DNA of 64,000 bases from Deltaproteobacteria bacterium (GTDB lineage Bacteria; Bdellovibrionota_F; JAHFAK01). The stretch covers positions 232-64,231 of the forward strand of contig JAHFAK010000001.1 of assembly GCA_023250585.1 (NCBI GenBank). The letters are read 5' to 3'. Below are positions 24,506 to 63,490 of the stretch, piece after piece (the first letter of the stretch is position 1; each line of letters starts with the position of its first letter). A program made the translations under genes and the position numbers. The notes under the pieces are model-generated. The model worked only from the letters and a program-made list of their open reading frames with translations, was not told the DNA's origin and made no database searches.

Positions 24506-24540
24506 ATACTATTATTGTATATACTCTTAAAAAATTCTTA

Positions 24541-29147: not shown

Positions 29148-29149
29148 AA

Positions 29150-30274: not shown

Positions 30275-30288
30275 ATTTTCTCATGATG

Positions 30289-32036: not shown

Positions 32037-32062
32037 ATTAATTCCTTTCGTAAAGAGCATTA

Positions 32063-32764: not shown

Positions 32765-33993
32765 AATGTAGTTCCTTCCATGAGTTCAAGAAAACGATCT
32801 GCTGAAATTGACCATGAATAATGCTTTTCGGTAATCGAACGGATATCTTCTGCTCGCATAACATACCTTTCTCGATTTCGACAAAAATCCTCTATTTTAT
32901 TACCTATGCTTTGAGGATCACATCCATTAATAATCCACTCTTTGTTATAGCGCTTAAGAATTTCTGGAGTTGCCCCATTGTCAGTGCCAAGCACAACAAG
33001 TCCTGAGAGTAATGCTTCAACAGTTGCAAGACCAAATCCTTCAGCACCTTGCGTAGGAAGAATAAAAGCATCCGCAACTTGATAGTAATGAGCTAACTCT
33101 ATTTCAGAAATTCCACTGACAAGGCGGACAGAATCTTTTAGAGAAAGTGAGTCTATGTACTGACGAATTTTCGTTTCCATCACACCTCGTCCAACAATTA
33201 TTATAAAAAATGAAACTCCTTTTTTTTTGAGCCCTGCAAGGGCTTCGACAAGTTTATCAACTCCTGTCCGAGGTTTCAAACCACGTGCTGTTATAAAAAG
33301 AATCTGCTCTAACGGAAGATTAAGTTCCTTACGAAGTTTTATCTTTAATGCATTATTAGTAATCGGAGTATACAGTTTTTCATCTGCTCCACCTGGAACA
33401 ATTTTAATCTTATCTTTAACTCCATTTCGGCCAATTGAAATACAACGATCACGTGCATACTCACTGTGAACCAAAACAAGATCTGCTTTGCTAATAACTG
33501 AAATAGCAATGCGATCGAAAAAATGTCCAATAATCTGTACTACTGGATTTTTTGGATAATTATATAAAAGTTCCGAATAAACATCACTATGAAAATCATA
33601 TATAATTTTTGCACGAGGCCACCATCGTTTTGGATTAAAACCTATCATCCACCATGGATTATGAACCCACACAACATCTATATTTTCATACTGCGATGCC
33701 ATCTTCTTCTGAGCACTATAGGATTGTACTGCAGTAACAAGAGGCCATAACATATGAGTGAGATCGCCTCTTTTAGGAATAGAAACTCGGAAATAGTGCA
33801 TATTTTCGACTATTTCATATGAAGAATATTTATGACTGTATTTCCGGGTAAGTATAATAACTTCATGGTTTCGATATGCTAATTCTCGTGAAATATTGTA
33901 TACAAGCTTAGGTAAGCCGCTATGGCGATCAGGATAAATTCCGGGTGTAAGAACAAGTATCTTCATTCTAGTTATTTTTTTTATGCCCAACAA
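32761..33993 (-). CDS. GT4-family glycosyltransferase (GT-B, retaining)
   Basis: C-terminal PTQGAEGFGLATVEALLSGLVVLGTDNGATPEIL is the EX7E region of Glycos_transf_1. Confidence 0.85.
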   Translation of the reverse strand: MLGIKKITRMKILVLTPGIYPDRHSGLPKLVYNISRELAYRNHEVIILTRKYSHKYSSYEIVENMHYFRVSIPKRGDLTHMLWPLVTAVQSYSAQKKMASQYENIDVVWVHNPWWMIGFNPKRWWPRAKIIYDFHSDVYSELLYNYPKNPVVQIIGHFFDRIAISVISKADLVLVHSEYARDRCISIGRNGVKDKIKIVPGGADEKLYTPITNNALKIKLRKELNLPLEQILFITARGLKPRTGVDKLVEALAGLKKKGVSFFIIIVGRGVMETKIRQYIDSLSLKDSVRLVSGISEIELAHYYQVADAFILPTQGAEGFGLATVEALLSGLVVLGTDNGATPEILKRYNKEWIINGCDPQSIGNKIEDFCRNRERYVMRAEDIRSITEKHYSWSISADRFLELMEGTTL

Positions 33994-35665
33994 AACGGTA
34001 ACTCAATAAAAGTATGCTCACCCATAGTAATAAAATCAATGAGGAAACAGTGAACTTTGTCTCTACCAACCCACAACCGCCGATAGAATCAACGTTCGAG
34101 AATATTGAAAGTCTCTTTATAGAACAGTTGACTTTACAACTTCCTTTAGAACTATTGCCATTAGCCTCTCCATCATCACATTCTTCTTCTCCCGCTTCTA
34201 TAAAACCATCTCCACATATAGCTAACTTACAAGTATTCAAGCATGAATCAGTATTCTCTGCATTACCATCATCACATTCTTCTTCTCCCGCTTCTATAAA
34301 ACCATCTCCACATATAGCTAACTTACAAGTATTCAAGCATGAATCAGTATTCTCTGCATTACCATCATCACATTCTTCACCCACAGCGAGTTTTCCATCA
34401 CTACATCCAAGTTCTATAGCTCCAATATCACATCTGACGCTTTGATCCCCATCACCATCAATTGGCCTAATAAAACCACGCTGATCAAAAGAAGGACAAC
34501 TCACTGGATCTCCTTTATCAATTGCAGGACTTCCGGGCCGAATCACATGAGTATCGGTGGGCCCTCCATTGTTATCAAGCGAACCTAGTTTCACATCCAG
34601 TTCATAATTCGGATAATATCCATAGATATCAGTAGTATTTGAAGGTTTAGGAAGATCATAGGTATTAACACCATTTATCTTACATCCCATGGTTACTTTG
34701 ATGATGTTGTATCCCTCTGAAACAATTGGGCCTCGACAATCATGCGGCGGACTCCCCTGATCAGGACTTGCATCCTTATTCTCCGCTATAATCGTATTCT
34801 TTACTACTATAGTTAATACATCTGTTGGAAAATCACTTGTATAAATTCCCCACGTAAAATCACCTATGGCTATACCACCTGCATGACCACTATCATTTTT
34901 ATCGCTATCGGCAGTATTACTAGAAATTGTACTATTTACTATGGTTGTCTCAGCGTCTAAGGACATTGCCGCACCACTCTCGATTGTAGTATTTCCGCTA
35001 AACGTAGAACTTTCTACAATCATTATTCCCGAAGCATTCCATACTCCACCGCCATAGTCTGCTTTATTACCAGAAATAGTACTCCGATCTATATGTAATA
35101 TCCCATTATTCGTATTTAATATTCCTCCTCCTGTTCCTAGTCCCTCTGATATACCTGTTAAAGAATGAACTGCTACAGGAAAAGTTCCTGAAAGGGTACT
35201 ATTATTTTTGATAGTACAATAGAAAAGAGATAAATTTCCTTCATTGCGAACACCTGCTCCACCCTTATCAACATCCATTCCATTTTGGATTGTCACATCT
35301 CGAATTGTTACTGTTGCACCTGAAGCAACAAAGAAAATTCGTGGAGGAGTATTTCCTCCATCAATGAAAGTACTTCGTGTACCCGATCCCTGAAGTGTAA
35401 TATCTTTATTAATGGTGATCCCATTTTCAATATACGTCCCCTCAGCAATAATAACAACATCAGCATCCTGTGACGCTTCTATCGCTTCTTTAATTGAACA
35501 ATAGGGATTACCATGTATATCATTACAATGGGAATCATTTTTATTAACATTTCGTGTGATACCAGCCCACGTATGAGAAATAAACACTGGACTACTCATT
35601 AGAATTACCATAGCTGTAAGGGAAATATATTTTATTTGGTAGATCTTAATTTTTATACTCAACAT
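33968..35665 (-). CDS. secreted right-handed parallel beta-helix protein with three C-terminal cysteine-rich (Myxococcus-type CGDG...CDDGN) repeats and a C-terminal hydrophobic anchor
   Basis: Signal peptide MLSIKIKIYQIKYISLTAMVILMSSPVFISHTWAG. PbH1-like repeats (NNSTLSG, ISGNKADYGGGVWNASG, FSGNTTIESGAAM, ISSNTADSD). 3x CGDGFIEAGEEECDDGNAENTDSCLNTCKLAI. Ends ...LILLLWVSILLLSYRFVGHKKNN. Confidence 0.7.
   Translation of the reverse strand: MLSIKIKIYQIKYISLTAMVILMSSPVFISHTWAGITRNVNKNDSHCNDIHGNPYCSIKEAIEASQDADVVIIAEGTYIENGITINKDITLQGSGTRSTFIDGGNTPPRIFFVASGATVTIRDVTIQNGMDVDKGGAGVRNEGNLSLFYCTIKNNSTLSGTFPVAVHSLTGISEGLGTGGGILNTNNGILHIDRSTISGNKADYGGGVWNASGIMIVESSTFSGNTTIESGAAMSLDAETTIVNSTISSNTADSDKNDSGHAGGIAIGDFTWGIYTSDFPTDVLTIVVKNTIIAENKDASPDQGSPPHDCRGPIVSEGYNIIKVTMGCKINGVNTYDLPKPSNTTDIYGYYPNYELDVKLGSLDNNGGPTDTHVIRPGSPAIDKGDPVSCPSFDQRGFIRPIDGDGDQSVRCDIGAIELGCSDGKLAVGEECDDGNAENTDSCLNTCKLAICGDGFIEAGEEECDDGNAENTDSCLNTCKLAICGDGFIEAGEEECDDGEANGNSSKGSCKVNCSIKRLSIFSNVDSIGGCGLVETKFTVSSLILLLWVSILLLSYRFVGHKKNN
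34171..34400. repeat. tandem direct repeat, unit 96 bp: two perfect copies (34171-34266, 34267-34362) plus a diverged partial third copy; encodes the 32-aa cysteine-rich repeats of the beta-helix protein
   Basis: Identical 96-nt strings (catcatcacattcttcttctcccgcttctataaaaccatctccacatatagctaacttacaagtattcaagcatgaatcagtattctctgcattac) at 34171 and 34267. Confidence 0.9.
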
Positions 35666-35668
35666 TCT

Positions 35669-36262
35669 TTATACAAGAAAAGAAATTTCTTGAGCTATTC
35701 TATGAGTATCACGTTGACCAATGATACGATTATAAACTAAAGATACTTTCTTGGCAGTTTTTGTCTCAAGATCATAACTAAGACAACCAACAATTGGTTT
35801 ATAATAAACATGAAGCGTACAGGCACGACGATTGTTAATTGCAGGATTCTCTAATTGATGAATCCCGATCTCATCATCAATATAAGAAACGTCTCCCCTA
35901 TTATACGTTTCTTGAAGTAATGGTGTAAGGTCGCCTTTAAAGTCAATGGATTTTACATAAACATAATTTTTACTCTCTATAGTCCCTCGTAGAACAGTCA
36001 TACAACAATGCTGCCCTTCATGATCATGAATTGGTGTTTTTTGCCCTGGTTCCCAACATAGAATAAGTATTTCAAAAAATTCATTTTTAAAAATAAGATT
36101 CCGGGTATAATGAGATTGATGAAAATAATATAAATTTTCCAAGGAACATTCAAAAAGTTTATATTGATGCATGAGTTCTAAAATTCTTTCATTTTCTATA
36201 GCTAAGGATGGAGAGAATAATCGAGAAATTTTCTGAATAAATTCTCTCAGTTGAGTTAGCAT
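35669..36262 (-). CDS. cysteine-dioxygenase-type-I-like cupin (thiol dioxygenase family)
   Basis: ILILCWEPGQKTPIHDHEGQHCCMTVLRG closely parallels mammalian CDO [29 protein letters not shown] (the 3-His iron site HxH...H). Confidence 0.7.
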   Translation of the reverse strand: MLTQLREFIQKISRLFSPSLAIENERILELMHQYKLFECSLENLYYFHQSHYTRNLIFKNEFFEILILCWEPGQKTPIHDHEGQHCCMTVLRGTIESKNYVYVKSIDFKGDLTPLLQETYNRGDVSYIDDEIGIHQLENPAINNRRACTLHVYYKPIVGCLSYDLETKTAKKVSLVYNRIIGQRDTHRIAQEISFLV

Positions 36263-36373
36263 ACAATATTTTCTACAATATTATAGGAAAATTATTGTTC
36301 ATTTTTTATAGCTTTAATTAAAATATCATCAGCGAACAAAGAAATTTTTCTATAACCAAATCCGATCTCCTAG

Positions 36374-38353
36374 TTAATACATTCGGGGAAGAGCATTAAT
36401 AGTTTTTAGCACTTCTTTATGATTAACACGTATCACATCGAGATATTCTAATATAGACTCTTTGCGAGGATAATTTTCTACTTCTATAAGCTTTAATGCA
36501 TCTGACCGATCGATGTGATGTTCACGTATTTGATTTGAACGAAAACAATCATTTTCGCTAAAACCGCATATCGTTCTATACACATAGTTATAGAAAGCAG
36601 CGGTTCCATCACCTATACGCCATGTAGTACTTGTATCTTTCGCTATCTCCCAATTATATTCATTAATTAAGATATCATTTATAATTTTTTCATTCCATGG
36701 AACATATTTATATAAATAAACATGGTCTTGCCGAATAAAATAATAACAAAGATAAGCCCAAAAAGTATCGATGATAGAATTATTAAGATACCGAGGATTA
36801 AGAAGATATTGCTTCATATAGTAATAGAGAATCTTAATCTTATTAAAGTTAGAAATAGTTATATGTCGTCTACCTTGAGACAGATCTTTGACATATCCAA
36901 TATTATTAATTCCTGAAAAACCTGCTTTAAAGCCTACATGCTCTAAGAAATTTTGACAAAAGATTAAGAGCTGTATTCCCGTATCTTTTTTTATCTTGTT
37001 CGCATAATAGAAAAATTGTTTATCTCCTGCCATCAATAATGGGATCATTCCAAGAACTGGCTGATGAATCCAGGCATTAATATTTTTTCTGATATTATCC
37101 CTCTTTTTTTTGATATCGGCTGAAACAAGAATATGCTCAATACCAAGTTTTCCACAGACTCTAGCTTGATTTCGTCTGCCAATATCGGTAATTATCCCCC
37201 AATCATATGAATAGGCAATGGGATTCATACCAAATTCTTTTTTAATAAGATGCAGACCATAACTGCTGTCGCGTCCACCGCTAAAGGCAACAATGCAATC
37301 TGGATTACCGTTATTTTGGCGATGCTCATCTAAAATTTGAAGGAACTTGTCCTTTCCCTGTAATTTGATATTTTTGTAAGAATGACAGTAATTACAAACT
37401 CCTTTCTCATCAAAGCTAATGAAAGGCATAGTTTCTGTAAGTATACAGATGGAACAACGCTTTAAATGGTAATTTTGAGGATAAAGCCATAGATTTTCAT
37501 TATCATTGAACTCCGTATTTTCTACTGCATTTTTAAAAGCATTCCCATTCTTTTGAGAAAATATGCGAGATTGACATTTATTAGAGTTATCTAACAAAAA
37601 ATTCTCTCTATGAAGAGTATCAAGGTTCATGATAATTGCCTGATGAGCACCTACATGAAAAATTTCTAATTTATTTTCAAAAGATTTTAATATCCCACAA
37701 GACTTAATTCGTTTTAGCATTGAGTATTCAGATGCAAAAATGAAGATTTCTTGGTTTGAATCAGCCATATAATAGAGAGATCCATTATTCGTAGCTAGAA
37801 TTAAATTTTTGTTTATACTATCTATCAAAGCAGTAGAAACAGTGCCTTCTATTTCACTATACGTTAAACTAAGTGATTGCGCATAAGAATGATTTCTACA
37901 TAAATGAGAAAAAATTTTCAGAAAGATTTCTGTATCTATGGTGTGTTTTTTTTCTAAAAACGAGTATTTATCCCATAGCATATCATCATTGACAATAATT
38001 CCATTATGAATACAGTAAAAAGAATGTTCTTCAAGGGGTTGATTATTATCTTGATGGATACTGCTCCCATCCGTAACTAATCGTGTATGGCCAATAACGC
38101 AGCTTGGGTGTATATTATCTGTCTTTTTACTGCCTATATTAAATAATTCTTTAAACTCTCGACTCTTAATAAACACAGAGGCCTTTTCTCTAGATTTTTT
38201 AATTGTTACTTTATTATCTTTAAAGATTGCAATTCCGGCAGCATCTTTCCCGCGAGACTGAGAGTATTGAAACAACTTTTGAGTGGTTTCTTGGAAACTA
38301 TCACAAGGAATAATATCTGCTTCTCTTAGTGCTATACCAAATATACCACACAT
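36374..38353 (-). CDS. fusion: class-II (Ntn) glutamine amidotransferase domain + zinc-ribbon/PP-loop N-acetyl-sugar amidotransferase domain (WbuX/WbpG/PseA-like)
   Basis: N-terminal MCGIFGIA (Cys2 nucleophile), GHTRLVTDG, HNGIIVND as in AsnB/PurF. Mid-protein CSICILTETMPFISFDEKGVCNYC zinc ribbon followed by PP-loop IVAFSGGRDSS, as in TIGR03573-type amidotransferases. Confidence 0.75.
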   Translation of the reverse strand: MCGIFGIALREADIIPCDSFQETTQKLFQYSQSRGKDAAGIAIFKDNKVTIKKSREKASVFIKSREFKELFNIGSKKTDNIHPSCVIGHTRLVTDGSSIHQDNNQPLEEHSFYCIHNGIIVNDDMLWDKYSFLEKKHTIDTEIFLKIFSHLCRNHSYAQSLSLTYSEIEGTVSTALIDSINKNLILATNNGSLYYMADSNQEIFIFASEYSMLKRIKSCGILKSFENKLEIFHVGAHQAIIMNLDTLHRENFLLDNSNKCQSRIFSQKNGNAFKNAVENTEFNDNENLWLYPQNYHLKRCSICILTETMPFISFDEKGVCNYCHSYKNIKLQGKDKFLQILDEHRQNNGNPDCIVAFSGGRDSSYGLHLIKKEFGMNPIAYSYDWGIITDIGRRNQARVCGKLGIEHILVSADIKKKRDNIRKNINAWIHQPVLGMIPLLMAGDKQFFYYANKIKKDTGIQLLIFCQNFLEHVGFKAGFSGINNIGYVKDLSQGRRHITISNFNKIKILYYYMKQYLLNPRYLNNSIIDTFWAYLCYYFIRQDHVYLYKYVPWNEKIINDILINEYNWEIAKDTSTTWRIGDGTAAFYNYVYRTICGFSENDCFRSNQIREHHIDRSDALKLIEVENYPRKESILEYLDVIRVNHKEVLKTINALPRMY

Positions 38354-38373
38354 TCGTAACTACCTCCAATCAT

Positions 38374-39564
38374 CTATTTCCCATGAAAGTAGGTGACTTT
38401 TTTTCTCTTACCATCCCAATGAATATCGGGAATGAGAACCTCTTTCTTTGCTTCTATACGATCTCGATATTTAATAAGATCCTGTAACATGATATGAATC
38501 TCTGCTTCCATATCTTTTGTTGGTTGATAGCCTAGTTCTAGTAGCTTTTTATGATCGGGTTTATAGTAATGTTCTTCCGCTTCATACCGTGGATTTTCAA
38601 CATTCTTAACTTCTACTTTTAATCCCAGATCTCTTCCTACACTTTTTACTTTTAAGGCCAATTGTGTAATATCATATACTTCTTCAAACTGATTGAAGAC
38701 TCGATATTCTCCTTGTGCAGGAGGATTTTCAATAACAAGCGTTAAACACTGGATTGAATCTTTCAGAGGCAAGAAACCCCGTTTTTGATGACCCTTTCCA
38801 AATGGAGAAAGTGGTTGATCAACTACAGCTTGGCAACAGAAACGATTGATAGCTGTTCCAAAACACTGGTCAAAATCAAGTCTCGTCAGCAAACGATCAT
38901 CTTCGTTCATTTCAAGAATACGCGAACCATATACTATTCCTTGCATAATATCAGAAGAACGAAGTCCCCAAATACGACAGGCAAGCATGACATTATTGCT
39001 ATCATGTACTTTACTTTGATGGTACCAACTACCCGCTTGCCGAGGAAAAGGAAGATTTTCTTTTCGACCACGATATTCAATCTCAAAAAACCCTTCAGGA
39101 ATATCTATGTTTGGTGTGCCGTACTCCCCCATAGTTCCCAGCTTTATAAGATGACCTTGTGGTGTTATATTCTTCATAGCATAGAGGACATTAAGAGTAC
39201 CTACAATATTGTTTGTCTGCGTCCACGCAGCATGTTTAGCATCAATCATACTGTAAGGAGCAGATGGATTTTCGCCTAAATGGACAATGGCTTCAGGTTT
39301 GAAATCTCTGAATATCTGTTCCACAAAATCGTAATGAATAAGATCCCCCTTAGAAAAAAAGAGTTCCTTTTTAAAGTGATCCTCAAAAGCTTTCAGACGT
39401 TCTGGCATTTCGTGAATAGGGAGAGCAGAATGGGAATCCATTTCACTCACACATTCTCGACGTGAAAAATTATCTATTCCTCCTATGGTATAACCTTTCG
39501 AAGCAAGACGTAGTGCAAGAGACCAACCTAAATATCCATCAATACCTAAAATAAGAACTCTCAT
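38374..39564 (-). CDS. sqdB: UDP-sulfoquinovose synthase
   Basis: Collinear with plant SQD1 and cyanobacterial SqdB: MRVLILGIDGYLGWSLALRL (SQD1 VMVIGGDGYCGWATALHL), GENPSAPYSMID, KLGTMGEYGTPNIDIPEG, YHQSKVHDS, FGTAINRFCCQAVVDQPL, RVFNQF, NPRYEAEEHYY. Confidence 0.9.
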   Translation of the reverse strand: MRVLILGIDGYLGWSLALRLASKGYTIGGIDNFSRRECVSEMDSHSALPIHEMPERLKAFEDHFKKELFFSKGDLIHYDFVEQIFRDFKPEAIVHLGENPSAPYSMIDAKHAAWTQTNNIVGTLNVLYAMKNITPQGHLIKLGTMGEYGTPNIDIPEGFFEIEYRGRKENLPFPRQAGSWYHQSKVHDSNNVMLACRIWGLRSSDIMQGIVYGSRILEMNEDDRLLTRLDFDQCFGTAINRFCCQAVVDQPLSPFGKGHQKRGFLPLKDSIQCLTLVIENPPAQGEYRVFNQFEEVYDITQLALKVKSVGRDLGLKVEVKNVENPRYEAEEHYYKPDHKKLLELGYQPTKDMEAEIHIMLQDLIKYRDRIEAKKEVLIPDIHWDGKRKKVTYFHGK

Positions 39565-39576
39565 GAAAAACTCCTA

Positions 39577-40899
39577 TCACAATTGAACTTGATTACCTTT
39601 GGTTTTAAGAAAATGAGCTTGAAAATATCTCCATACATATGTCATCCCTGCCCCAGCATACAAAGCTAAAAATGGCTCCAAAGGAAGCCGTGCTCGCATA
39701 CTCGATCTTATCAATGTAAATATAAAAACGAGTGAGATACAATAACCCCATATGACTAAATGGCTCCTAAACATTTTTCGTGCTCTTATAAGCCCAACAA
39801 GAGCTAACAACAAAATAGGTCCATAGGTCACTATACTCATTACTTTAAAAGGTGATGCCGTAAAAGAACTTTCTGAAATAGTTTCTTCCGGATAAAACCT
39901 CCACAAATTTAGAAATCGTTCAAGACAAAGGACAAGGAATTGTAGAGGATGAGATCTAATAAAATCTGTTGACTTAGCAGTAAAAATTCTATTTTTTGCC
40001 AAATCATTTTCATCTTTTAGTTCTTCTTCTATTCTAGGTAAAATATTGTTAGTAAACTGTAGAAAGTTTTCCTTTCTATTAAATCCAGATGAAAATTCAT
40101 TATTATGCATATATAAAACTTTTCCTACATTGCTTTTTGTAGTCAAAAACTCCCCAAGAACAAAATAATTACGTATACCCCAGAGACATACCGTTGAATA
40201 AAAAATAAGCATAAATAGCACTGTTTTTGTTACCCTCTTTATTAATGACTCGTGTCTTAAGATATACATTACGATGAAGAAAGCAAGAATGATAAAAGGG
40301 CTTAAGATTGAAATTGTAAAATTGGCCAATCCAAAAAGTAATGCGGATAACCAAAGAAAAGACGGTTTCGTACATGCCAGTGAGAAGCTCAAAATTCCTA
40401 ACACCACAAGAAGAGTAAAAAATGTTTCTGGAAGAATAAGAACAGATGAAAAAATAAGAATAGGATAACAAGCAACAATAAACATAGCACATAGAGCACT
40501 CGTTTTTCCAAAAATATGGCGCGTTAGAAAATATACGCAAGGCATCATACTTGAATTAAGGCATGCTAGGATAATGCGTGTCCATAGAATATCTCCATCT
40601 CCTAAATGAAAATAAATTGAAAGTACATAGGGAAAAAATGGCATGATATTAGTTTTACTCCCCCACCCTTTACCTTCAAATAATCGAAGGGCTGCTGGGT
40701 AATAATCGTTTATTTCATCAGGCCATATAAAACGATCACCTGTAACAAAAACAGCAACAATTATACGAAGGGCACCTCCGATGAAACATATAAAAAGTGG
40801 AATAATCACACTATTTGAGTTATTTCCACCAACTCTTGATAATAGTTTTTCCAAAGTTAAATCCATAATTCCAATCAGTGCCTTTTTTTGTAATACCAT
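39577..40899 (-). CDS. GT-C fold membrane glycosyltransferase (ArnT/PMT-like, GT83/GT39-type)
   Basis: About 11 TM helices. First periplasmic-loop motif FIWPDEINDYYPAALRL (the DE motif of GT-C enzymes). Follows a membrane GT2. Start may be further downstream; 80-nt overlap with the upstream gene as drawn. Confidence 0.55.
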   Translation of the reverse strand: MVLQKKALIGIMDLTLEKLLSRVGGNNSNSVIIPLFICFIGGALRIIVAVFVTGDRFIWPDEINDYYPAALRLFEGKGWGSKTNIMPFFPYVLSIYFHLGDGDILWTRIILACLNSSMMPCVYFLTRHIFGKTSALCAMFIVACYPILIFSSVLILPETFFTLLVVLGILSFSLACTKPSFLWLSALLFGLANFTISILSPFIILAFFIVMYILRHESLIKRVTKTVLFMLIFYSTVCLWGIRNYFVLGEFLTTKSNVGKVLYMHNNEFSSGFNRKENFLQFTNNILPRIEEELKDENDLAKNRIFTAKSTDFIRSHPLQFLVLCLERFLNLWRFYPEETISESSFTASPFKVMSIVTYGPILLLALVGLIRARKMFRSHLVIWGYCISLVFIFTLIRSSMRARLPLEPFLALYAGAGMTYVWRYFQAHFLKTKGNQVQL

Positions 40900-41863
40900 A
40901 TTTTCTTGTATGAATTATTATAGAAACCTCTCCTATACGAAGGCCTTTTTTAGCAGACTCAAGTATTACCTCTGCAGATTGGAATTGATCTTCTTTTAGT
41001 TGAAGACACTTAAGAGCATTAACATTAAAAGCCTTGAGGCCGCTCGAACAATCAGTCAATCGTACATTGGCAAGAAAGTTAATAATTCTTGTAAAAAATC
41101 GAATCCCTATCTTTCTTAATGTACTCCCTCTATAAGCTCCCATCATTCGGGATCCAATCACGAGATCCTTTTCTCCGTTTATAATTGGAGCTACTAATTT
41201 TTCAATTTCAAGAGGAGAATGTTGAAGATCTGCATCCATGGTGACTCCAATAGGAATATTATAGTTAACTAAAACATCGTACCCTAGTCTCGATGCAGCT
41301 CCTTGTCCACGATTAATCTTATTTTTGACAACGACAGCTCCACTCTCACAACTCACTCCCGCAGTGTTATCAGTACTTCCATCATCAATGACAAGAATTC
41401 CTACTGATCTTCTTTGAATCGTGCGAGGTATCTTACTAAGGAGTTCTTGTAAGTTTGCTTCTTCATTGAATGCAGGAATGATAATGACAATTTCCTTATT
41501 AAAAAGTTCCTTGTCCAAAACATTCTTAGCTTCTTCATATCCCAAACGACGAAGGAGAAGATCAATTTGATGTCTCATATCATCAAACAATGATTTTGTA
41601 TAGAAGAAAAAAATCCATATGACAAAATTTGAAGCTATAAGCAAAGCTAATATTCGTCCTCTCTGATGCATTGCCAATTGCAACATTTCTGCAATTGCAT
41701 TGAGAATATTTGGGTTAGAACTTACTAAAAGGAGTGACACACTGAAACACGCGGAAAAAACAAAATTCATCCTTCTCCATTTAGGTCCTCTATAGAAAAT
41801 AAAACTTAAGACAAGACCTATTAGACCTAAACTAAAACCAAATATACGTAGACTTGAAAACAT
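40820..41863 (-). CDS. membrane-anchored GT2 glycosyltransferase (polyprenyl-phosphate sugar synthase, ArnC/DPM1/GtrB-like)
   Basis: Three N-terminal TM helices, then IVIIIPAFNEEANLQELLSKI and GILVIDDGSTDNT GT2 motifs. Confidence 0.75.
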   Translation of the reverse strand: MFSSLRIFGFSLGLIGLVLSFIFYRGPKWRRMNFVFSACFSVSLLLVSSNPNILNAIAEMLQLAMHQRGRILALLIASNFVIWIFFFYTKSLFDDMRHQIDLLLRRLGYEEAKNVLDKELFNKEIVIIIPAFNEEANLQELLSKIPRTIQRRSVGILVIDDGSTDNTAGVSCESGAVVVKNKINRGQGAASRLGYDVLVNYNIPIGVTMDADLQHSPLEIEKLVAPIINGEKDLVIGSRMMGAYRGSTLRKIGIRFFTRIINFLANVRLTDCSSGLKAFNVNALKCLQLKEDQFQSAEVILESAKKGLRIGEVSIIIHTRKYGITKKGTDWNYGFNFGKTIIKSWWK

Positions 41864-41869
41864 ATAATA

Positions 41870-42823
41870 TTATTGAGAAGTATAACTTTCTTTGAAATAG
41901 TCGAACGTTTTTTGTAGACCCTCTCGTAAATTAGTTCTTATACTAAATCCTAAATCTTTTTTAGCTTTTGTACTATCTGCATAATTTCTTACGACTTCCC
42001 ACTCTGATCTTTGCATATGAGCTATTTCTACTCGATATTTACCTTCTCTTTCAATAACCTGCTTGATGAGAATAACCAGATCTTTTATACTTGTTTCTCG
42101 ATTGGTACCAATATGAAAAATTTCTCCACATCCTTTCTTTTGAATTGCACAAAGAATAGCTTCACAAAGGTCATCAACAAATATAAAATCTCTTGTTTGT
42201 GAACCATCTCCGTAAATAATAATAGATTTTTTCTCAAGAACGTTTTTCATACATTTTGCCACGACACTATTTTTATGTAGGGAAAAGGGTCCATAGACAT
42301 TGCTAAATCGAAGAATAGTTGAAGGAATTCCAAAGCTTTTTGTGTAAGCTCGAGTATATCCCTCACACGAAAGCTTCCCCGCCCCATAAGGAGAAGTAGG
42401 TTTTGCTGCAAGCTCTTCATTATAGGGAGGATTAACCTCTCCCAAAGCAGCACCAGATGAGGCAAGAATAAAACTTGAGACTCGCGCCTCACGGGCCGCT
42501 TCAAGCATATTAAGAGTACCTCGAACATTTATTTCAAAATCTACTCGTGGATTATTAAGTGAAGGAGCAATTCCCGTCGAAGCAGCAAGATGAATAACAA
42601 CATTACAATCTGAACAAGCATTTTGACAACTCTTATAATCTAAAATATCTGCCTCGCGTACTTCTATAGATGGATCTATTTTCATTATTGTTTCTCGACG
42701 TCCGATACTAAGATTATCCAGGATACAAAGAGTAAGATTAGGTATTCTTTGACGAAGCATTATAATAAGATTTGTTCCAATAAATCCACACCCGCCAGTA
42801 ATAAGCCATCTTTGAGTTGTCAT
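41870..42823 (-). CDS. NAD-dependent nucleotide-sugar epimerase/dehydratase (extended SDR; UDP-GlcA decarboxylase or 4-epimerase type)
   Basis: WLITGGCGFIGTNLI, catalytic YGAGKLSCE (YxxxK). 317 aa. Confidence 0.85.
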   Translation of the reverse strand: MTTQRWLITGGCGFIGTNLIIMLRQRIPNLTLCILDNLSIGRRETIMKIDPSIEVREADILDYKSCQNACSDCNVVIHLAASTGIAPSLNNPRVDFEINVRGTLNMLEAAREARVSSFILASSGAALGEVNPPYNEELAAKPTSPYGAGKLSCEGYTRAYTKSFGIPSTILRFSNVYGPFSLHKNSVVAKCMKNVLEKKSIIIYGDGSQTRDFIFVDDLCEAILCAIQKKGCGEIFHIGTNRETSIKDLVILIKQVIEREGKYRVEIAHMQRSEWEVVRNYADSTKAKKDLGFSIRTNLREGLQKTFDYFKESYTSQ

Positions 42824-42877
42824 AAATTTTTATAATTGTTTCCTACAAGAAGTATGTTCGTGAATATTTAACTCATT

Positions 42878-59590: not shown

Positions 59591-60511
59591 CTAACTCCAA
59601 TCATGATCATTGTAAAAAGATCGAGAGATAGGCTCTACCTCACGTCGAATTCGGTCTATCTCAGCAGCAGTAAGTCTACTTTTCCAAATATCAACTGTTT
59701 TACGACTATCTCTTCTACTATTATCTTTTTTTCCATGAAATTCTACTACATTTAATGGAGAAGTATAAAGATTCATTATCTCTTCTGTTTTCTTTGTAAA
59801 TGATAGATTGAATTTCTCGTAAAGTTTTCTAAATTCCTCAATAGGTGCAGAGGCTAAATCCTCATGTCTAACAAAAATCCATTCAGGATGTTCCCTTGTA
59901 AGAATTTCAACCGTTCCATACAGAGCTTTCCATTGAAGAATTCCCATACCTATAATATCAGGTCTTTGAGGATGATTTTGAATTTCTTTCTCAAATCTAA
60001 ATAAATATCTTTTCATTAAATTTTTCTGATCAAGAAAATGATTAAAGTTAAATCCCCAATTAAGACGTTTTAAGCTACTTACGAAGGATGCTGGGTGTCT
60101 TATAACAACGATAACATGCGTATTAAATTTTTTAGCAAACCATTCGGTAGAAAAAAGACCAATAGGTTCGATAAAAATCTGCGGAAATCTAGAATTAAAC
60201 TGGCGAAACAGAGATCTAAATTTTCTTTTGGTTACACGTCCAAAATCTCGGAGTGATTCTATTTTGCTCAGGCTTTTAAAAAAATCATACTTCATATCCA
60301 CACACTTTTGGATATAGGGATAAAATTGCTTCTCGTTTTCCTGAGAGATATAGGTGTACATCCATGGAAAAGGTTGACATCCAATCTCTGAAGCAACATT
60401 AAAAATTTCCTCATCTCGCATAAGAAATTCTCCTGAGATAGAAAGCATTCTTCCAACCCAGCTTGAACCAGATCGATGTGATCCTGTAATGTAGATATGT
60501 TTTTTTATCAT
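59591..60511 (-). CDS. PAPS-dependent sulfotransferase, Stf0-like
   Basis: 5'-phosphosulfate-binding loop YITGSHRSGSSWVGRML (Mtb Stf0 ICSTQRSGSTWLCELL). 3'-phosphate-binding region VVIRHPASFVSSLKR. 306 aa. Confidence 0.75.
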   Translation of the reverse strand: MIKKHIYITGSHRSGSSWVGRMLSISGEFLMRDEEIFNVASEIGCQPFPWMYTYISQENEKQFYPYIQKCVDMKYDFFKSLSKIESLRDFGRVTKRKFRSLFRQFNSRFPQIFIEPIGLFSTEWFAKKFNTHVIVVIRHPASFVSSLKRLNWGFNFNHFLDQKNLMKRYLFRFEKEIQNHPQRPDIIGMGILQWKALYGTVEILTREHPEWIFVRHEDLASAPIEEFRKLYEKFNLSFTKKTEEIMNLYTSPLNVVEFHGKKDNSRRDSRKTVDIWKSRLTAAEIDRIRREVEPISRSFYNDHDWS

Positions 60512-60530: not shown

Positions 60531-62711
60531 TTATGCTACAAAAATTTCCTCTCCTCTCTCAATTTCCTCTAATAAAAAAGTTGATATCTCTTTTCTCATA
60601 AACCAATCAGGAAGCTCTTTTCCTGATTTGAGCATTTCACGCGCTTCACTGCCACTGATTAAACGCATATTTTTTTCATCATGATTACATTTTTCTACAT
60701 AGCGATTGCACTGCTGACAGTAAGAAATAGTGTCAAAAAATACAGGCGTTATTCCCAAATCCCCCATACTCTTAAATAGTTCTTGAGAAGCATGAGTACC
60801 ATAGAAATTACCAACGCCTGTATGATCTCTTCCCATAATAAAATGAGTACATCCAAAGTTTTTCCTACAAAGAGCAGTAAAAACAGCCTCACGTGGTCCC
60901 GCATATCGTGAATAGGTAGAAAATGCTCCGATCAATACTTTTTCTTTAGGGTAATAAGTATTAAGCAACTTCTCATAACTTTGTATAATAGCATGACTGA
61001 CAAAATCACCTTTCTTTTTGATACCTATTACTGGATGAACAAAAAGGCCATCGCATGAAGTACGTTCCAGCGCTAGAATTTGTAATGTTTCATGGGCTCT
61101 ATGAACAACATTTCTTGTATGGAAACCAACAACTCGGCTCCATCCTTTATGTTCAAAAAGGGCCCGCGTTTGCAAAGGAGTGAATTCATATTGTTTGTTC
61201 ATACGTGGAAGACGTTTTATCAATTCAACTTTTCCACCAATGAAATAATTGTCTTTTCCGAAGAGAGCTGCAACTCCTGGATGCGCTTTATCTTGTGTTC
61301 CAAACATCATTTGAGATAATTCCGTGAGGTCATAGGGGTAAATTTCCTCTATCTCAATCGTAGCAACAATATCCTGCGAGGATTGAAGAGCTAAACTCAC
61401 TATAGTTCCTTCATGAAATTTTGTTGCTTCTTCTTTACTCACTTGCAATAAAATAGGAAGAGGCCATGCAACCCCGTTAGAAAGTTTATAATCATGCAAA
61501 ACACTCGTAAGTTCTTCTCGATTCATAAAACCTTGTAATGGCGAAAAAGAACCAAGAGCAATTTGCTCTGCATCCATCAGTATTTTTTCGTCAACAATTA
61601 AGCGTGGGTACTGATTAAGCAGAGTTTTATCACACTCTTGAGCAATACGATACGTAAGTATTCCTCCATGTGGCTTGATCAAAAATCGAGAATGATCATC
61701 CAGAAGTTTTCCAAAGGAAACTTTTCGATTGGAGCTCTCAAATTCATTTATAAGAGAAACAACAACCGCTGCACAATCAACGGGATGTTGACCAATAGCA
61801 GTTTCAGCAGCGAGGACTAAACCGTCAGCTCCATCAAGTAAAGTATTGATAACATCGTTAACTTCTGCTCGTGTTGGTTTCCTCTTTTGTGTCATAGACT
61901 CTAATAAGTTTGTAGCTACATAAATCGGTTTACCAGCAGAATTTGCTCGTTGAATAAGAAGCTTCTGAAGAAAAGGAATTTTTTCGATGGGAACTTCGCG
62001 AGAGAGATCTCCTCTATCGATGAGGAGCGCGTCAGCAAGCGTCACAATAGCATCAACATTTTTTACACCCTGCCTGCTTTCAATTTTTGCAATAATTCTG
62101 GCCTGTGCACCAACGAGTTCTCTCATTTCCGAAACAGCTTCTTTACTCGATGCAAAGGAAAGAGCAAAATTGGTTATGCCATATTTTTTGGATAACGTCA
62201 TGACTTCTTTGTCTTTTTTAGAAAGAACAGGAAGCATAATATCTTGATCAACAGTAACTGCTTTATTACTTCCGACAATACCTCCGCAAAGCACTCGTGC
62301 TTTTAATGAACCACCATTTTTTTCAATGACCTGTAAAAAGAGAGAATTAAAATCAACATTAATGAGACTACCTATTTCTATTTTTTCTACTACAAATCCT
62401 GGAGTAAGTGAAATAGTATGTTCATCACAAATGATATTTTCACTTACAATATCAACTATATCTCCTTCTTTTAGATAAATTTCTCCGCCTTTTACACTTC
62501 TATTCCTAATTTGAGCTCCTTCGGTATCAATACATATTGGTTTTTTCGTGTATTGACCAATGGTCTGCATCATTTTTTCAGCTACATTGATATCAACATG
62601 TGAAAGATTAATACGAAAGAGATCTACTCCAAGCGCGTCTAAACGTTGAATAACAATTTTATCCAACGAAGCAGGCCCAATAGTTGCTAATATTTGAAGT
62701 TTTTTTATCAT
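60531..62711 (-). CDS. fusion protein: pyruvate-kinase catalytic (A+B) domain lacking the C-terminal allosteric domain + complete ATP sulfurylase (sulfate adenylyltransferase)
   Basis: Start refined to MIKKLQ (ATGA overlap with the upstream SDR). PK blocks: ATIGPAS, FRINLSH, IDTEGAQIR, IIAKIESRQG, LLIDRGDLSREVP, KPIYVATNLLESMTQKRKPTRAEVNDVINTLLDGADGLVLAAETAIGQHP. ATP sulfurylase blocks: FHTRNVVHRAHE, GRDHTGVG. Confidence 0.85.
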   Translation of the reverse strand: MIKKLQILATIGPASLDKIVIQRLDALGVDLFRINLSHVDINVAEKMMQTIGQYTKKPICIDTEGAQIRNRSVKGGEIYLKEGDIVDIVSENIICDEHTISLTPGFVVEKIEIGSLINVDFNSLFLQVIEKNGGSLKARVLCGGIVGSNKAVTVDQDIMLPVLSKKDKEVMTLSKKYGITNFALSFASSKEAVSEMRELVGAQARIIAKIESRQGVKNVDAIVTLADALLIDRGDLSREVPIEKIPFLQKLLIQRANSAGKPIYVATNLLESMTQKRKPTRAEVNDVINTLLDGADGLVLAAETAIGQHPVDCAAVVVSLINEFESSNRKVSFGKLLDDHSRFLIKPHGGILTYRIAQECDKTLLNQYPRLIVDEKILMDAEQIALGSFSPLQGFMNREELTSVLHDYKLSNGVAWPLPILLQVSKEEATKFHEGTIVSLALQSSQDIVATIEIEEIYPYDLTELSQMMFGTQDKAHPGVAALFGKDNYFIGGKVELIKRLPRMNKQYEFTPLQTRALFEHKGWSRVVGFHTRNVVHRAHETLQILALERTSCDGLFVHPVIGIKKKGDFVSHAIIQSYEKLLNTYYPKEKVLIGAFSTYSRYAGPREAVFTALCRKNFGCTHFIMGRDHTGVGNFYGTHASQELFKSMGDLGITPVFFDTISYCQQCNRYVEKCNHDEKNMRLISGSEAREMLKSGKELPDWFMRKEISTFLLEEIERGEEIFVA

Positions 62712-63490
62712 ATAATACTCCATCCTCCATCTACAACTAAATTATGTCCCGTAACATAGGCTGAGGCATCCGAAGCTAAGAAAATTGCTGCACCTACTAT
62801 TTCTTCTGCAGATGCCATTCGTTGTAACGGTGTTTTTTTAATATAATTTTTTACGAAACTTTGAGGTTGTGAATCAAAAATTCCACCAGGAGAAATTGCA
62901 TTTACTCTCACTCCATGGTTACCGTAATATGATGCTAAATATTTTGTAAATTGGATAACACCCCCTTTGATTGCGGCATACGCAGCTGGCATAGTCATAT
63001 CTGTTCCTTCATAGATTGAAAAATCAGGGGCAACAATTCCATAAATTGAAGCAATATTTATAATAGATCCTTTTTTTGCTTCTTTCATTATTTCGGTAAC
63101 TTTTTGGCAGCAGAGGCAATACCCATTTAAATGTTTATTGATATTCTCTTGCCACGAATTAAACGGAATTTTTTCAAATGATACTCCCCAATCTTTTGTC
63201 CGAGGATATGCATTATTTATCCATACATCAATTCGTCCTTCTTCTTTGAGAATTTGTGTTACTCCGTTAATAACAGATTTTTCATCGGCAATATCTAATA
63301 AAAGAAAGCGTGCAGTATAGCCATCTTTTTTTAATTCTTCACAAGCTCTTATCCCCTTTTCTTCATCGATCTCTGCGATGATCACTTGTGCTCCATACGA
63401 AGCAAATCCTCGGGCAAATGCTTTTCCCAAAAGGCCTCCCCCTCCAGTTATGACAGTTACCTTATGAGTTAAATCAAATAAATTTTTCAT
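62708..63490 (-). CDS. short-chain dehydrogenase/reductase (classical SDR)
   Basis: KVTVITGGGGLLGKAFA, NNAYP, YAAIKGG (YxxxK). Confidence 0.85.
   Translation of the reverse strand: MKNLFDLTHKVTVITGGGGLLGKAFARGFASYGAQVIIAEIDEEKGIRACEELKKDGYTARFLLLDIADEKSVINGVTQILKEEGRIDVWINNAYPRTKDWGVSFEKIPFNSWQENINKHLNGYCLCCQKVTEIMKEAKKGSIINIASIYGIVAPDFSIYEGTDMTMPAAYAAIKGGVIQFTKYLASYYGNHGVRVNAISPGGIFDSQPQSFVKNYIKKTPLQRMASAEEIVGAAIFLASDASAYVTGHNLVVDGGWSII

What the first reader, a model, noticed from the sequence alone, without database searches (positions are those of the whole stretch)
35669..36262. Cysteine-dioxygenase-like cupin next to SqdB: candidate sulfite supply
The 197-aa protein carries the CDO type-I iron site block (LILCWEPGQKTPIHDHEGQHC) almost residue-for-residue. 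Cysteine dioxygenase yields cysteine sulfinate, which decays via transamination to sulfite. Sulfite is the obligate co-substrate of SqdB, encoded 2 kb upstream, and no APS/PAPS reductase is visible in the window. A thiol dioxygenase inside an O-antigen locus is otherwise hard to explain. An alternative role would be oxidation of a thiol-containing sugar substituent.
Basis: inference. Interest (0 to 1): 0.6.

Follow-up and report, generated by a model that had tools for sequence, protein, structure and literature searches.

The report
Cysteine dioxygenase beside sulfoquinovose synthase gene
A canonical-looking cysteine dioxygenase gene sits one gene away from a sulfo-sugar synthase inside a huge surface-sugar gene cluster, where it may make the sulfite that the synthase needs; that role is plausible but unproven.

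Summary
Window 35669-36262 (minus strand) encodes a 197-aa protein that matches Pfam CDO_I (83.5 bits). It keeps every mammalian CDO active-site residue: the three iron-binding histidines, Tyr58/Arg60, the Ser(Thr)-His-Tyr triad and the Cys93/Tyr157 crosslink pair. Its predicted fold is closest to mammalian CDO (TM about 0.8). It is an Arg-type L-cysteine dioxygenase, not a 3-mercaptopropionate dioxygenase.

A UDP-sulfoquinovose synthase gene (SqdB) lies 2.1 kb upstream on the same strand. The window has no APS/PAPS reductase.

The sulfite-supply idea is partly supported.
- None of 75 genomes with the nearest CDO relatives has SqdB nearby; 25 of them pair CDO with a PLP decarboxylase instead.
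- None of 80 sister SqdB loci has a CDO.
- A syntenic SqdB module (L166) lacks CDO, so CDO is a lineage-specific addition.
- At least 7 sister SqdB loci carry CysH, with or without Sat, right beside SqdB. A dedicated sulfite-source gene is therefore a recurring accessory of this module, and CDO could replace it here.

The main rival is ordinary cysteine homeostasis, as reported for Bordetella pertussis. The source organism and the rest of its genome could not be examined.

The parts
35669..36262 (-). Cysteine dioxygenase (Arg-type, with the Cys-Tyr crosslink pair), 197 aa
   Evidence: Pfam CDO_I scores 83.5 bits. PDB phmmer gives mammalian CDO1 at E about 1e-20. Y52, R54, H79, H81, C86, H135, T149, H151, Y153 and C160 align with human Y58, R60, H86, H88, C93, H140, S153, H155, Y157 and C164. 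The AF2 model has pLDDT 82, and its best fold matches are mammalian CDO at TM 0.78-0.84 and rmsd 2.1 A.
36263..36373 (-). 111-bp intergenic spacer upstream of the CDO gene, the largest gap in this part of the cluster
   Evidence: ORF coordinates are. The consensus scan finds no promoter or terminator signal above the shuffled background.
36374..38353 (-). Fusion of a class-II glutamine amidotransferase (MCGIFGI) and a WbuX-like PP-loop (SGGRDSS) N-acetyl-sugar amidotransferase, 659 aa
   Evidence: Pfam GATase_6/7 and NCBIfam TIGR03573 WbuX at 131 bits over residues 298-652. The family has more than 6600 members. It is part of the module conserved in L166 at 52% identity.
38374..39564 (-). UDP-sulfoquinovose synthase (SqdB/Agl3 type), 396 aa
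   Evidence: NCBIfam NF041015 scores 579.1 against a cut-off of 575. It has GTMGEYG and SWYHQSK, the [ST]MGxnYx3K signature (PMC8987622). Relatives at 65-72% identity are common in metagenomic glycan loci.
39577..40899 (-). GT-C type (PMT_2, ArnT-like) membrane glycosyltransferase
   Evidence: Pfam PMT_2. It is 42% identical to its L166 counterpart. The gene call on L001 starts 11 codons further in.
40820..41863 (-). DUF2304 + GT2 glycosyltransferase, read here as a polyprenyl-phosphate sugar transferase by analogy with ArnC/GtrB
   Evidence: Pfam Glycos_transf_2 and DUF2304. It is 57% identical to L166, and homologues lie next to SqdB in 18 of 80 sister loci.
41870..42823 (-). NAD-dependent nucleotide-sugar epimerase/dehydratase of the SqdB module
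   Evidence: Pfam Epimerase scores 183 bits. Homologues occur in 45 of 80 SqdB loci and in L166 at 49% identity.
33968..35665 (-). Exported beta-helix protein with a choice-of-anchor-Q domain and Cys-rich repeats. Its start lies 3 nt after the CDO stop codon.
   Evidence: NCBIfam NF041518, TIGR02232 and NosD-like hits, and Pfam DUF4215. The repeat copy number differs in L001.
5114..6859 (-). ATP sulfurylase + APS kinase (PAPS synthase)
   Evidence: Pfam PUA_2, ATP-sulfurylase and APS_kinase.
60531..62723 (-). Fusion of a pyruvate-kinase barrel, PUA_2 and ATP sulfurylase
   Evidence: Pfam PK (235 bits), PUA_2 and ATP-sulfurylase (262 bits).
59591..60511 (-). Sulfotransferase (user of PAPS)
   Evidence: Pfam Sulfotransfer_3 and Sulfotransfer_1.

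Best explanation
Shown: the gene encodes a cytoplasmic, iron-dependent L-cysteine dioxygenase of the Arg type. It has the complete mammalian-style active site, including the Cys/Tyr pair that can form the thioether cofactor. It lies on the same strand immediately after a conserved five-gene sulfoquinovose module: epimerase, DUF2304-GT2, GT-C transferase, SqdB and a GATase-WbuX amidotransferase. All of this sits inside a roughly 60-kb surface-polysaccharide cluster. Inferred: the enzyme oxidises free L-cysteine with O2 to cysteine sulfinate. Housekeeping PLP enzymes then release sulfite. One route is aspartate aminotransferase giving beta-sulfinylpyruvate, which decays spontaneously to pyruvate and sulfite. 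The other is a NifS/CsdA-type cysteine sulfinate desulfinase giving alanine and sulfite. SqdB adds that sulfite to its UDP-glucose-derived 5,6-ene intermediate to make UDP-sulfoquinovose. The GT2 and GT-C enzymes then place the sulfoquinovose on a surface glycan. In this reading CDO does the job that CysH (with or without Sat) does in sister SqdB loci, giving a cysteine-fed, O2-dependent sulfite source in place of APS/PAPS reduction.
For: Enzyme identity rests. The protein has Arg, not Gln, at the position that defines the subtype (PMC8050391). The genes are co-directional and close: SqdB is separated from CDO by one gene, and gaps are 20 bp, 111 bp and 3 bp. The window lacks CysH and TauE but has two Sat genes. 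In sister loci whose SqdB is 65-72% identical, at least 7 of 80 have a PAPS_reduct gene on the same strand 78-1704 bp from SqdB. L091 reads CysH-Sat-SqdB-GT2. L093 reads TauE-Sat/CysC-CysH-x-SqdB. L113, L131 and L101 read CysH-epimerase-(GT2)-SqdB. A sulfite-source gene is therefore a recurrent accessory of this module. L166 shares the module but has no CDO, so CDO is an add-on placed at the end of the module. SqdB needs sulfite and forms UDP-Glc-5,6-ene without it (PMC8987622). CDO-driven cysteine conversion yields sulfite in vivo in a bacterium that lacks sulfate assimilation (bioRxiv 10.64898/2026.04.22.720190). No PLP decarboxylase or other enzyme that would consume cysteine sulfinate is encoded in the window.
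Against: The CDO-SqdB adjacency was found only in this lineage. Beyond the window it appears only on near-identical metagenome contigs covering the same locus (L001-L003). None of the 75 nearest CDO loci has SqdB within the fetched flanks of up to 10 kb. None of 80 SqdB loci has a CDO. L166 makes do without either CDO or CysH in 22 kb. Whether the genome has cysH elsewhere is unknown, because the organism could not be identified. The step from cysteine sulfinate to sulfite relies on enzymes not encoded here. The CDO gene has somewhat lower GC3 than its neighbours (0.182 against a mean of 0.240, sd 0.022), which fits a separately acquired passenger. By a rough estimate, a gene placed at random among about 55 cluster genes would land this close to SqdB about 7% of the time.
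Confidence: 0.4

Rival explanations
1. The CDO does ordinary cysteine homeostasis or catabolism. It removes excess cysteine or uses it as a sulfur and carbon source, and its place in the glycan cluster is accidental: a horizontally acquired passenger that is merely co-transcribed. Any sulfite it produces is a by-product, not a dedicated feed for SqdB.
For: This is the reported role of C93-type CDOs in Bordetella pertussis, which pairs them with a sulfite exporter (bioRxiv 10.64898/2026.04.22.720190). The pairing with SqdB is not conserved. GC3 is 2.6 sd below the window mean. A 111-bp gap separates the gene from the conserved module.
Against: The gene lies inside a tightly packed, co-directional run of glycan genes and is followed 3 nt later by the next gene. 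No cysteine or sulfite transporter or regulator lies beside it. None of the 75 relatives sits in a glycan cluster, so the location is unusual. It is also exactly where sister loci keep a sulfite-producing CysH.
Confidence: 0.3
2. Cysteine sulfinate is not broken down to sulfite. It is used as such, or after conversion to hypotaurine, taurine or cysteate, as a substituent of the polysaccharide, for example amide-linked to a uronic acid.
For: The conserved partner of the nearest bacterial relatives is a PLP decarboxylase that looks like cysteine sulfinate decarboxylase. It is directly adjacent in 25 Bacteroidota genome loci plus the metagenome contig L004. The window encodes a UDP-glucose-dehydrogenase-family enzyme at 50769-52001, which could supply uronic acids.
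Against: No PLP decarboxylase was found by Pfam scans of all ORFs of at least 120 aa or by tblastn with the L004 decarboxylase against fetched loci. No ATP-grasp or amino-acid ligase appeared in the Pfam scans. The adjacent amidotransferase has an intact glutaminase domain, so it delivers ammonia, not an amino acid.
Confidence: 0.15
3. The protein is a thiol dioxygenase for a substrate other than free L-cysteine. Candidates are 3-mercaptopropionate, cysteamine, or a thiol carried on a sugar or glycan intermediate.
For: The CDO_I family includes enzymes with other substrates, such as 3MDO and ergothioneine dioxygenase, and these appear among the weaker structural matches. The protein is an orphan with at most 44% identity to anything in the libraries searched, which represent about 15 billion proteins.
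Against: Tyr58 and Arg60, which bind the cysteine carboxylate and underlie CDO's high specificity, are kept, along with every other first- and second-shell residue (PMC8050391). Gln-type enzymes have Gln at this site. Sequence and fold similarity are both much stronger to cysteine-specific mammalian CDO than to 3MDO.
Confidence: 0.07
4. Cysteine sulfinate itself, rather than sulfite, is the sulfur nucleophile that SqdB adds to the UDP-glucose-5,6-ene, giving a sulfone-linked cysteinyl sugar.
For: This rests only on chemical plausibility, since sulfinates are good S-nucleophiles, and on the gene adjacency.
Against: SqdB is about 70% identical to relatives that sit next to CysH, a sulfite producer, and to the L166 copy that has no CDO. 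It passes the equivalog model for UDP-sulfoquinovose synthase.
Confidence: 0.02

Closest known systems
Mammalian cysteine dioxygenase type 1 (CDO1; e.g. PDB 2IC1, 6BGF, 2B5H)
   Same: Same cupin fold (TM 0.78-0.84, rmsd about 2.1 A). It shares the three-histidine iron site, Tyr58/Arg60 substrate anchors, the Ser/Thr-His-Tyr triad, the Cys93/Tyr157 pair and Cys164, and has a similar length.
   Different: Only 26-27% identity in the structural alignment. Ser153 is replaced by Thr. The Ser158-Pro159 positions are Tyr-Lys here. The protein is bacterial and sits in a polysaccharide cluster.
Bordetella pertussis BP2871/BP3011 'mammalian-like' CDOs with a sulfite exporter (bioRxiv 10.64898/2026.04.22.720190)
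   Same: Both are bacterial CDOs with the Cys equivalent to C93, and in B. pertussis cysteine conversion yields sulfite. That organism lacks sulfate assimilation, the physiological setting in which a CDO-based sulfite supply would make sense.
   Different: In B. pertussis the sulfite is a toxic by-product that is exported, and the role is cysteine homeostasis. No link to SqdB or to a glycan is reported. The sequences were not compared here.
CDO + PLP-decarboxylase (CSAD-like) gene pairs of Bacteroidota
   Same: These are the closest bacterial sequence relatives with organism names, at 30-40% identity, with the same Arg60 and mostly Cys93.
   Different: Those genes sit next to a decarboxylase, often with an SSF transporter as well. 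The window has neither, and those loci have no SqdB.
CysH(+Sat/TauE)-SqdB cassettes in sister glycan loci, and the plant/cyanobacterial route APS reductase to sulfite to SQD1
   Same: They have the same SqdB clade, the same epimerase-GT2-SqdB module and a gene for a sulfite source placed within 2 kb of SqdB.
   Different: There the sulfite source is reductive, from APS or PAPS. Here it would be oxidative, from cysteine and O2. The window has Sat but no CysH.
3-Mercaptopropionate dioxygenase (Gln-type thiol dioxygenase; PDB 4TLF, 6XB9)
   Same: Same family and fold, and the same three-histidine site and S-H-Y triad.
   Different: 3MDO has Gln in place of Arg60 and uses a relocated Arg (PMC8050391). 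The window protein has Arg at that position, and it matches 3MDO far more weakly (E 7e-8 against 1e-20).

Membership tests
Cysteine dioxygenase type I (Pfam PF05995), Arg-type CDO | Scores above the curated family threshold over nearly the whole domain | tested here: met
   83.5 bits against a cut-off of 23, profile positions 16-168 of 170.
Cysteine dioxygenase type I (Pfam PF05995), Arg-type CDO | Three-histidine iron site (human H86, H88, H140) | tested here: met
   H79, H81 and H135 align with these residues and are invariant among 30 relatives.
Cysteine dioxygenase type I (Pfam PF05995), Arg-type CDO | Tyr58/Arg60 anchoring the substrate carboxylate (Arg-type, not Gln-type) | tested here: met
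   Y52 and R54 lie in the HYTRN motif. The definition is from PMC8050391.
Cysteine dioxygenase type I (Pfam PF05995), Arg-type CDO | Ser-His-Tyr second-shell triad (S153-H155-Y157) | tested here: met
   The triad is T149-H151-Y153. Thr occupies the Ser position in 36 of 91 aligned sequences.
Cysteine dioxygenase type I (Pfam PF05995), Arg-type CDO | Cupin fold superposable on solved CDO structures | tested here: met
   AF2 model with pLDDT 82.3. Foldseek top 23 hits are all mammalian CDO, E about 2e-15, TM 0.78-0.84.
Cysteine dioxygenase type I (Pfam PF05995), Arg-type CDO | Cys93-Tyr157 thioether crosslink actually formed | not testable with these tools
   Both residues are present (C86, Y153). 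Crosslink formation needs mass spectrometry or a crystal structure.
Cysteine dioxygenase type I (Pfam PF05995), Arg-type CDO | Catalyses L-cysteine + O2 to cysteine sulfinate | not testable with these tools
   This needs an enzyme assay.
3-Mercaptopropionate dioxygenase (Gln-type) | Gln at the position of Arg60 | tested here: not met
   Arg is present.
UDP-sulfoquinovose synthase (SqdB/SQD1/Agl3), neighbour gene 38374-39564 | Equivalog HMM score above the cut-off | tested here: met
   NF041015 scores 579.1 against 575, only just above.
UDP-sulfoquinovose synthase (SqdB/SQD1/Agl3), neighbour gene 38374-39564 | [ST]MGxnYx3K signature | tested here: met
   GTMGEYG and SWYHQSK are in the translation. 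The signature is from PMC8987622.
UDP-sulfoquinovose synthase (SqdB/SQD1/Agl3), neighbour gene 38374-39564 | Uses sulfite and UDP-glucose | not testable with these tools
   This needs an enzyme assay.
CDO-CSAD hypotaurine/taurine pathway | PLP-dependent cysteine sulfinate decarboxylase encoded beside CDO | tested here: not met
   It is present in 25 relatives' genome loci plus L004. No PLP decarboxylase was found among the window's ORFs.
Dedicated sulfite-supply cassette for SqdB (CysH with or without Sat, as in L091 and L093) | APS/PAPS reductase near SqdB | tested here: not met
   There is no PAPS_reduct hit in the window by Pfam or tblastn. CDO would be a non-homologous substitute.
Dedicated sulfite-supply cassette for SqdB (CysH with or without Sat, as in L091 and L093) | The CDO-SqdB association recurs in independent lineages | tested here: not met
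   0 of 75 CDO loci and 0 of 80 SqdB loci show it, and the L166 module lacks CDO.

The most novel reading that the evidence does not exclude
This bacterium feeds its sulfoquinovose-glycan pathway with sulfite made oxidatively from cysteine. The route is CDO to cysteine sulfinate, then a housekeeping PLP enzyme to sulfite, then SqdB. It would be a non-homologous replacement of the CysH found in sister clusters, and the first case of a thiol dioxygenase recruited as a biosynthetic sulfite donor for a sulfonated sugar. It would also suggest an organism without assimilatory sulfate reduction that builds sulfonated surface glycans from acquired cysteine.
Probability: 0.4. Interest if true: 0.55.

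Novelty: new member of a known kind. Interest (0 to 1): 0.42.

Why it matters
If the coupling is real, it shows a second, oxygen-dependent way to provide sulfite for sulfoquinovose synthesis. It would explain how a bacterium lacking APS/PAPS reductase could still make sulfonated surface sugars. It would also add a biosynthetic role to an enzyme family known for cysteine catabolism and homeostasis. Independently of CDO, the comparison shows that this SqdB clade lives in polysaccharide clusters rather than sulfolipid operons, and that it often carries its own sulfite-supply gene. That is useful for annotating sulfoquinovose-containing bacterial glycans. If the coupling is not real, the gene is an ordinary though divergent cysteine dioxygenase.

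Tried and rejected
- **Alignment too divergent for scanning.** A 30-sequence alignment of relatives had no stretch conserved enough to scan genomes with, so a 5-sequence alignment was used instead.
- **Source organism not identified.** The look-ups by exact protein returned only metagenome contigs, not the 88-kb NCBI contig. The window's genome was not among the loci returned from the species-representative collection. Run accessions are not in the literature library. The best named RmlA hits are mixed Gammaproteobacteria, Desulfobacterota and Myxococcales at about 67% identity. The presence of cysH elsewhere in the genome therefore could not be tested.
- **Promoter and terminator scan.** It found nothing above the shuffled background.
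- **GC and GC3 of the CDO gene.** The values are low but not decisive, since another module gene has a similar GC3.
- **Strain variants.** L001-L003 are at least 99.98% identical in the aligned DNA, so they give no evolutionary information.
- **Literature search for CDO together with sulfoquinovose.** Nothing relevant was found.
- **Readings rejected.** The 3MDO/Gln-type reading fails because Arg is present. The taurine-pathway reading fails because there is no decarboxylase in the window. The idea that the adjacent GATase-WbuX enzyme ligates cysteine sulfinate fails because its glutaminase domain is intact and the family is widespread in loci without CDO.
Full report
**Observation.** The window has an ATG-started ORF at 35669..36262 on the minus strand. 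It encodes 197 aa and contains the quoted block LILCWEPGQKTPIHDHEGQHC. It matches Pfam CDO_I at 83.5 bits (cut-off 23, E 1.6e-23) over nearly the whole profile. No NCBIfam model matches it. Among solved structures the best sequence matches are mammalian CDO1 at E about 1e-20. Pseudomonas 3-mercaptopropionate dioxygenase and Bacillus CDO reach only about 1e-7.

**What the protein is.** I aligned it to human CDO1 together with 90 single-domain relatives. It keeps the following:
- the iron ligands H86, H88 and H140;
- the substrate-carboxylate anchors Y58 and R60;
- the second-shell triad, with Thr in place of S153, then H155 and Y157;
- C93, the partner of Y157 in the thioether cofactor;
- C164.

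In its own numbering these are H79, H81, H135, Y52, R54, T149, H151, Y153, C86 and C160. Arg at position 60 separates cysteine-specific 'Arg-type' enzymes from 'Gln-type' 3-mercaptopropionate dioxygenases. The multi-point binding through Arg60 and Tyr157 is held responsible for CDO's high specificity (PMC8050391).

An AlphaFold model (pLDDT 82.3, pTM 0.81) is closest to mammalian CDO structures: Foldseek E about 2e-15, TM 0.78-0.84, rmsd 2.1 A. These rank ahead of 3MDO, Bacillus CDO, ergothioneine dioxygenase and plant cysteine oxidase. The retained alpha-carboxylate anchors argue for free L-cysteine as substrate and against a sugar-bound thiol.

The Cys93/Tyr157 pair is usually described as eukaryotic, but it is not rare among this protein's relatives. 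Cys is at that position in 68 of the 91 aligned sequences (90 relatives plus human CDO1) and in 64 of 75 loci from named MAGs of Acidobacteriota, Bacteroidota and Planctomycetota. A recent preprint reports such 'mammalian-like' CDOs in Bordetella pertussis.

The protein is nearly an orphan. In libraries representing about 15 billion proteins, the best non-self single-domain match is 44% identical.

**Surroundings.** From 3188 to the window end, nearly every gene is on the minus strand. Together they form a very large surface-polysaccharide cluster. It includes:
- a WbpM-like dehydratase, an initiating sugar transferase and rmlABCD;
- two Wzx-type flippases and a Wzy-like protein;
- many glycosyltransferases and methyltransferases;
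- a sub-cluster resembling cyclitol biosynthesis.

Upstream of CDO in the direction of transcription lie five genes:
- an epimerase (41870-42823);
- a DUF2304-GT2 (40820-41863);
- a PMT_2/GT-C transferase (39577-40899);
- SqdB (38374-39564; NF041015 at 579.1 against a cut-off of 575; TMG...YHQSK signature);
- a fusion of a class-II glutaminase with a WbuX-like PP-loop amidotransferase (36374-38353).

A 111-bp gap precedes CDO. The next gene, an exported beta-helix protein with a choice-of-anchor-Q domain, starts 3 nt after the CDO stop codon.

The window contains no APS/PAPS reductase, sulfite reductase or TauE (Pfam scans; tblastn). It does contain a Sat-APS kinase fusion (5114-6859), a pyruvate-kinase-barrel-Sat fusion (60531-62723) and a sulfotransferase (59591-60511). 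The cluster can therefore activate sulfate for sulfate esters, but it shows no reductive route to sulfite.

**Comparative tests of the CDO-SqdB link.**

From the CDO side, I fetched 75 loci from species-representative genomes that encode the nearest relatives, with up to 10 kb of flank on each side. None has an SqdB homologue. The only strongly recurrent neighbour is a PLP decarboxylase that resembles cysteine sulfinate decarboxylase. It is adjacent in 25 of these Bacteroidota genome loci and in the metagenome contig L004, often together with an SSF transporter. No locus lies in a glycan cluster.

From the SqdB side, I fetched 80 metagenome loci whose SqdB is 65-72% identical. None has a CDO homologue.

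The closest relative of the neighbouring amidotransferase lies on a 33-kb contig, L166. That contig is syntenic with window 36374-44266: Wzy-like protein 41%, epimerase 49%, DUF2304-GT2 57%, PMT_2 42%, SqdB 71% and GATase-WbuX 52% identity. There the module is followed by a flippase, not by CDO. CDO is therefore a lineage-specific addition at the end of a conserved sulfoquinovose module.

The metagenome contigs that carry the same CDO (L001-L003) are at least 99.98% identical in the aligned DNA to the window, so they are the same population.

**Indirect support for a sulfite-supply role.** In at least 7 of the 80 sister SqdB loci, a PAPS_reduct (CysH) gene lies on the same strand 78-1704 bp from SqdB.
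- L091 reads CysH-Sat-SqdB-GT2.
- L093 reads TauE-Sat/CysC-CysH-x-SqdB.
- L113, L131 and L101 read CysH-epimerase-(GT2)-SqdB, and L157 reads CysH-SqdB.

Only 50 of the 80 loci have at least 3 kb of flank on one side, so this count is a lower bound. A gene that makes sulfite is thus a recurrent accessory of exactly this module. The window has the module and Sat genes but lacks CysH, and carries CDO next to the module instead.

SqdB needs sulfite and otherwise yields UDP-Glc-5,6-ene (PMC8987622). Conversion of cysteine sulfinate to sulfite by aspartate aminotransferase, through beta-sulfinylpyruvate, or by NifS/CsdA-type desulfinases is established biochemistry. Papers listed deal with this chemistry, but I did not read them in full. 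In B. pertussis, which has lost sulfate assimilation, CDO-dependent cysteine conversion produces sulfite that has to be exported.

**Most likely mechanism and rivals.** I take the enzyme assignment, an L-cysteine dioxygenase, as about 85% secure.

For its role here, my best explanation (0.4) is that it supplies sulfite to SqdB through cysteine sulfinate and housekeeping PLP enzymes. In this reading it functionally replaces the CysH seen in sister loci.

The rivals are:
- **Cysteine homeostasis or catabolism (0.3).** The location would be fortuitous. Supporting points are the lack of any conserved association, the low GC3 (0.182 against 0.240 +/- 0.022) and the known B. pertussis role.
- **A glycan substituent derived from cysteine sulfinate (0.15).** This could be taurine, hypotaurine or cysteate. 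The decarboxylase pairing in relatives suggests it, but the window has neither a decarboxylase nor a ligase.
- **A substrate other than cysteine (0.07).**
- **Direct addition of cysteine sulfinate by SqdB (0.02).**

By a rough estimate, a gene dropped at random into about 55 cluster genes would fall within one gene of SqdB about 7% of the time. Adjacency alone is therefore weak evidence.

**Novelty and verdict.** The protein is a new, divergent member of a well-known enzyme family. Its context is unusual, and I found no paper linking CDO to sulfoquinovose synthesis. The pathway-level idea would be a new variant of sulfite provisioning if confirmed, but it rests on one lineage and on analogy. 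Interest is moderate.

**Limits.** The source organism and the rest of its genome could not be identified. The key question, whether cysH exists elsewhere in the genome, therefore stays open. The neighbourhood surveys cover the 75 nearest CDO loci and 80 nearest SqdB loci, not all known ones.

Noticed in passing
window 60531-62723 (-): A 730-aa fusion of a pyruvate-kinase barrel domain, a PUA_2 domain and ATP sulfurylase lies directly upstream of a sulfotransferase (59591-60511). This architecture is unusual. It could couple PEP-driven ATP regeneration to sulfate activation.
   Followed up: no
window 36374-44266 (-) and L166 1-11968: A conserved module of a Wzy-like protein, epimerase, DUF2304-GT2, PMT_2 (GT-C), SqdB and a GATase(II)-WbuX-like fusion. 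It suggests an Arn/Gtr-like route that loads sulfoquinovose onto a lipid carrier and transfers it in the periplasm. The sugar may also be modified by the amidotransferase.
   Followed up: partly
window 36374-38353 (-): The fusion of an Ntn-type glutaminase with a WbuX-like PP-loop amidotransferase belongs to a very large family. More than 6600 hits were found, in bacteria and archaea, and they are mostly labelled 'hypothetical' or mislabelled as asparagine synthase or GlmS.
   Followed up: partly
L091, L093, L096, L101, L113, L131, L157: Sister SqdB loci carry CysH inside the epimerase-GT2-SqdB module, sometimes with Sat, Sat/CysC or TauE as well. This amounts to a self-contained sulfite-supply cassette for sulfoquinovose glycans.
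   Followed up: yes
window 22901-32764 (-): A sub-cluster holds two B12-binding radical SAM enzymes, an FkbM methyltransferase, a Rieske+PhyH fusion, an SDR, a DHQ-synthase-like sugar-phosphate cyclase, a DUF6206 protein, a GAPDH-like protein and a CDP-alcohol phosphatidyltransferase. It looks like synthesis of a methylated cyclitol or carbasugar phosphate substituent.
   Followed up: no
window 33968-35665 (-); L001 5891-7492: This is an exported beta-helix protein with a choice-of-anchor-Q domain and two Cys-rich acidic repeats. The metagenome variant L001 lacks one 96-bp repeat unit. The C-terminus reads as Gly-Gly, a hydrophobic helix and a basic tail, which resembles a sorting signal.
   Followed up: partly
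proteins P0006-P0025: The highest-scoring matches to the CDO in the 1.8-billion representative library are proteins of about 600-920 aa that carry three to five tandem CDO domains. Their origin and function are unknown.
   Followed up: no
L004, L013, L014, L016 and 22 other Bacteroidota loci: CDO lies directly beside a 455-459-aa PLP decarboxylase, often with an SSF-family transporter as well. This is consistent with a hypotaurine/taurine branch in Flavobacteriales and Crocinitomicaceae.
   Followed up: partly
whole window: All seven window proteins found in the collection are singletons at 90% clustering, and three others are absent as exact sequences. GC is about 35% and GC3 about 24%. The contig comes from a poorly sampled lineage whose taxonomy could not be determined.
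   Followed up: partly
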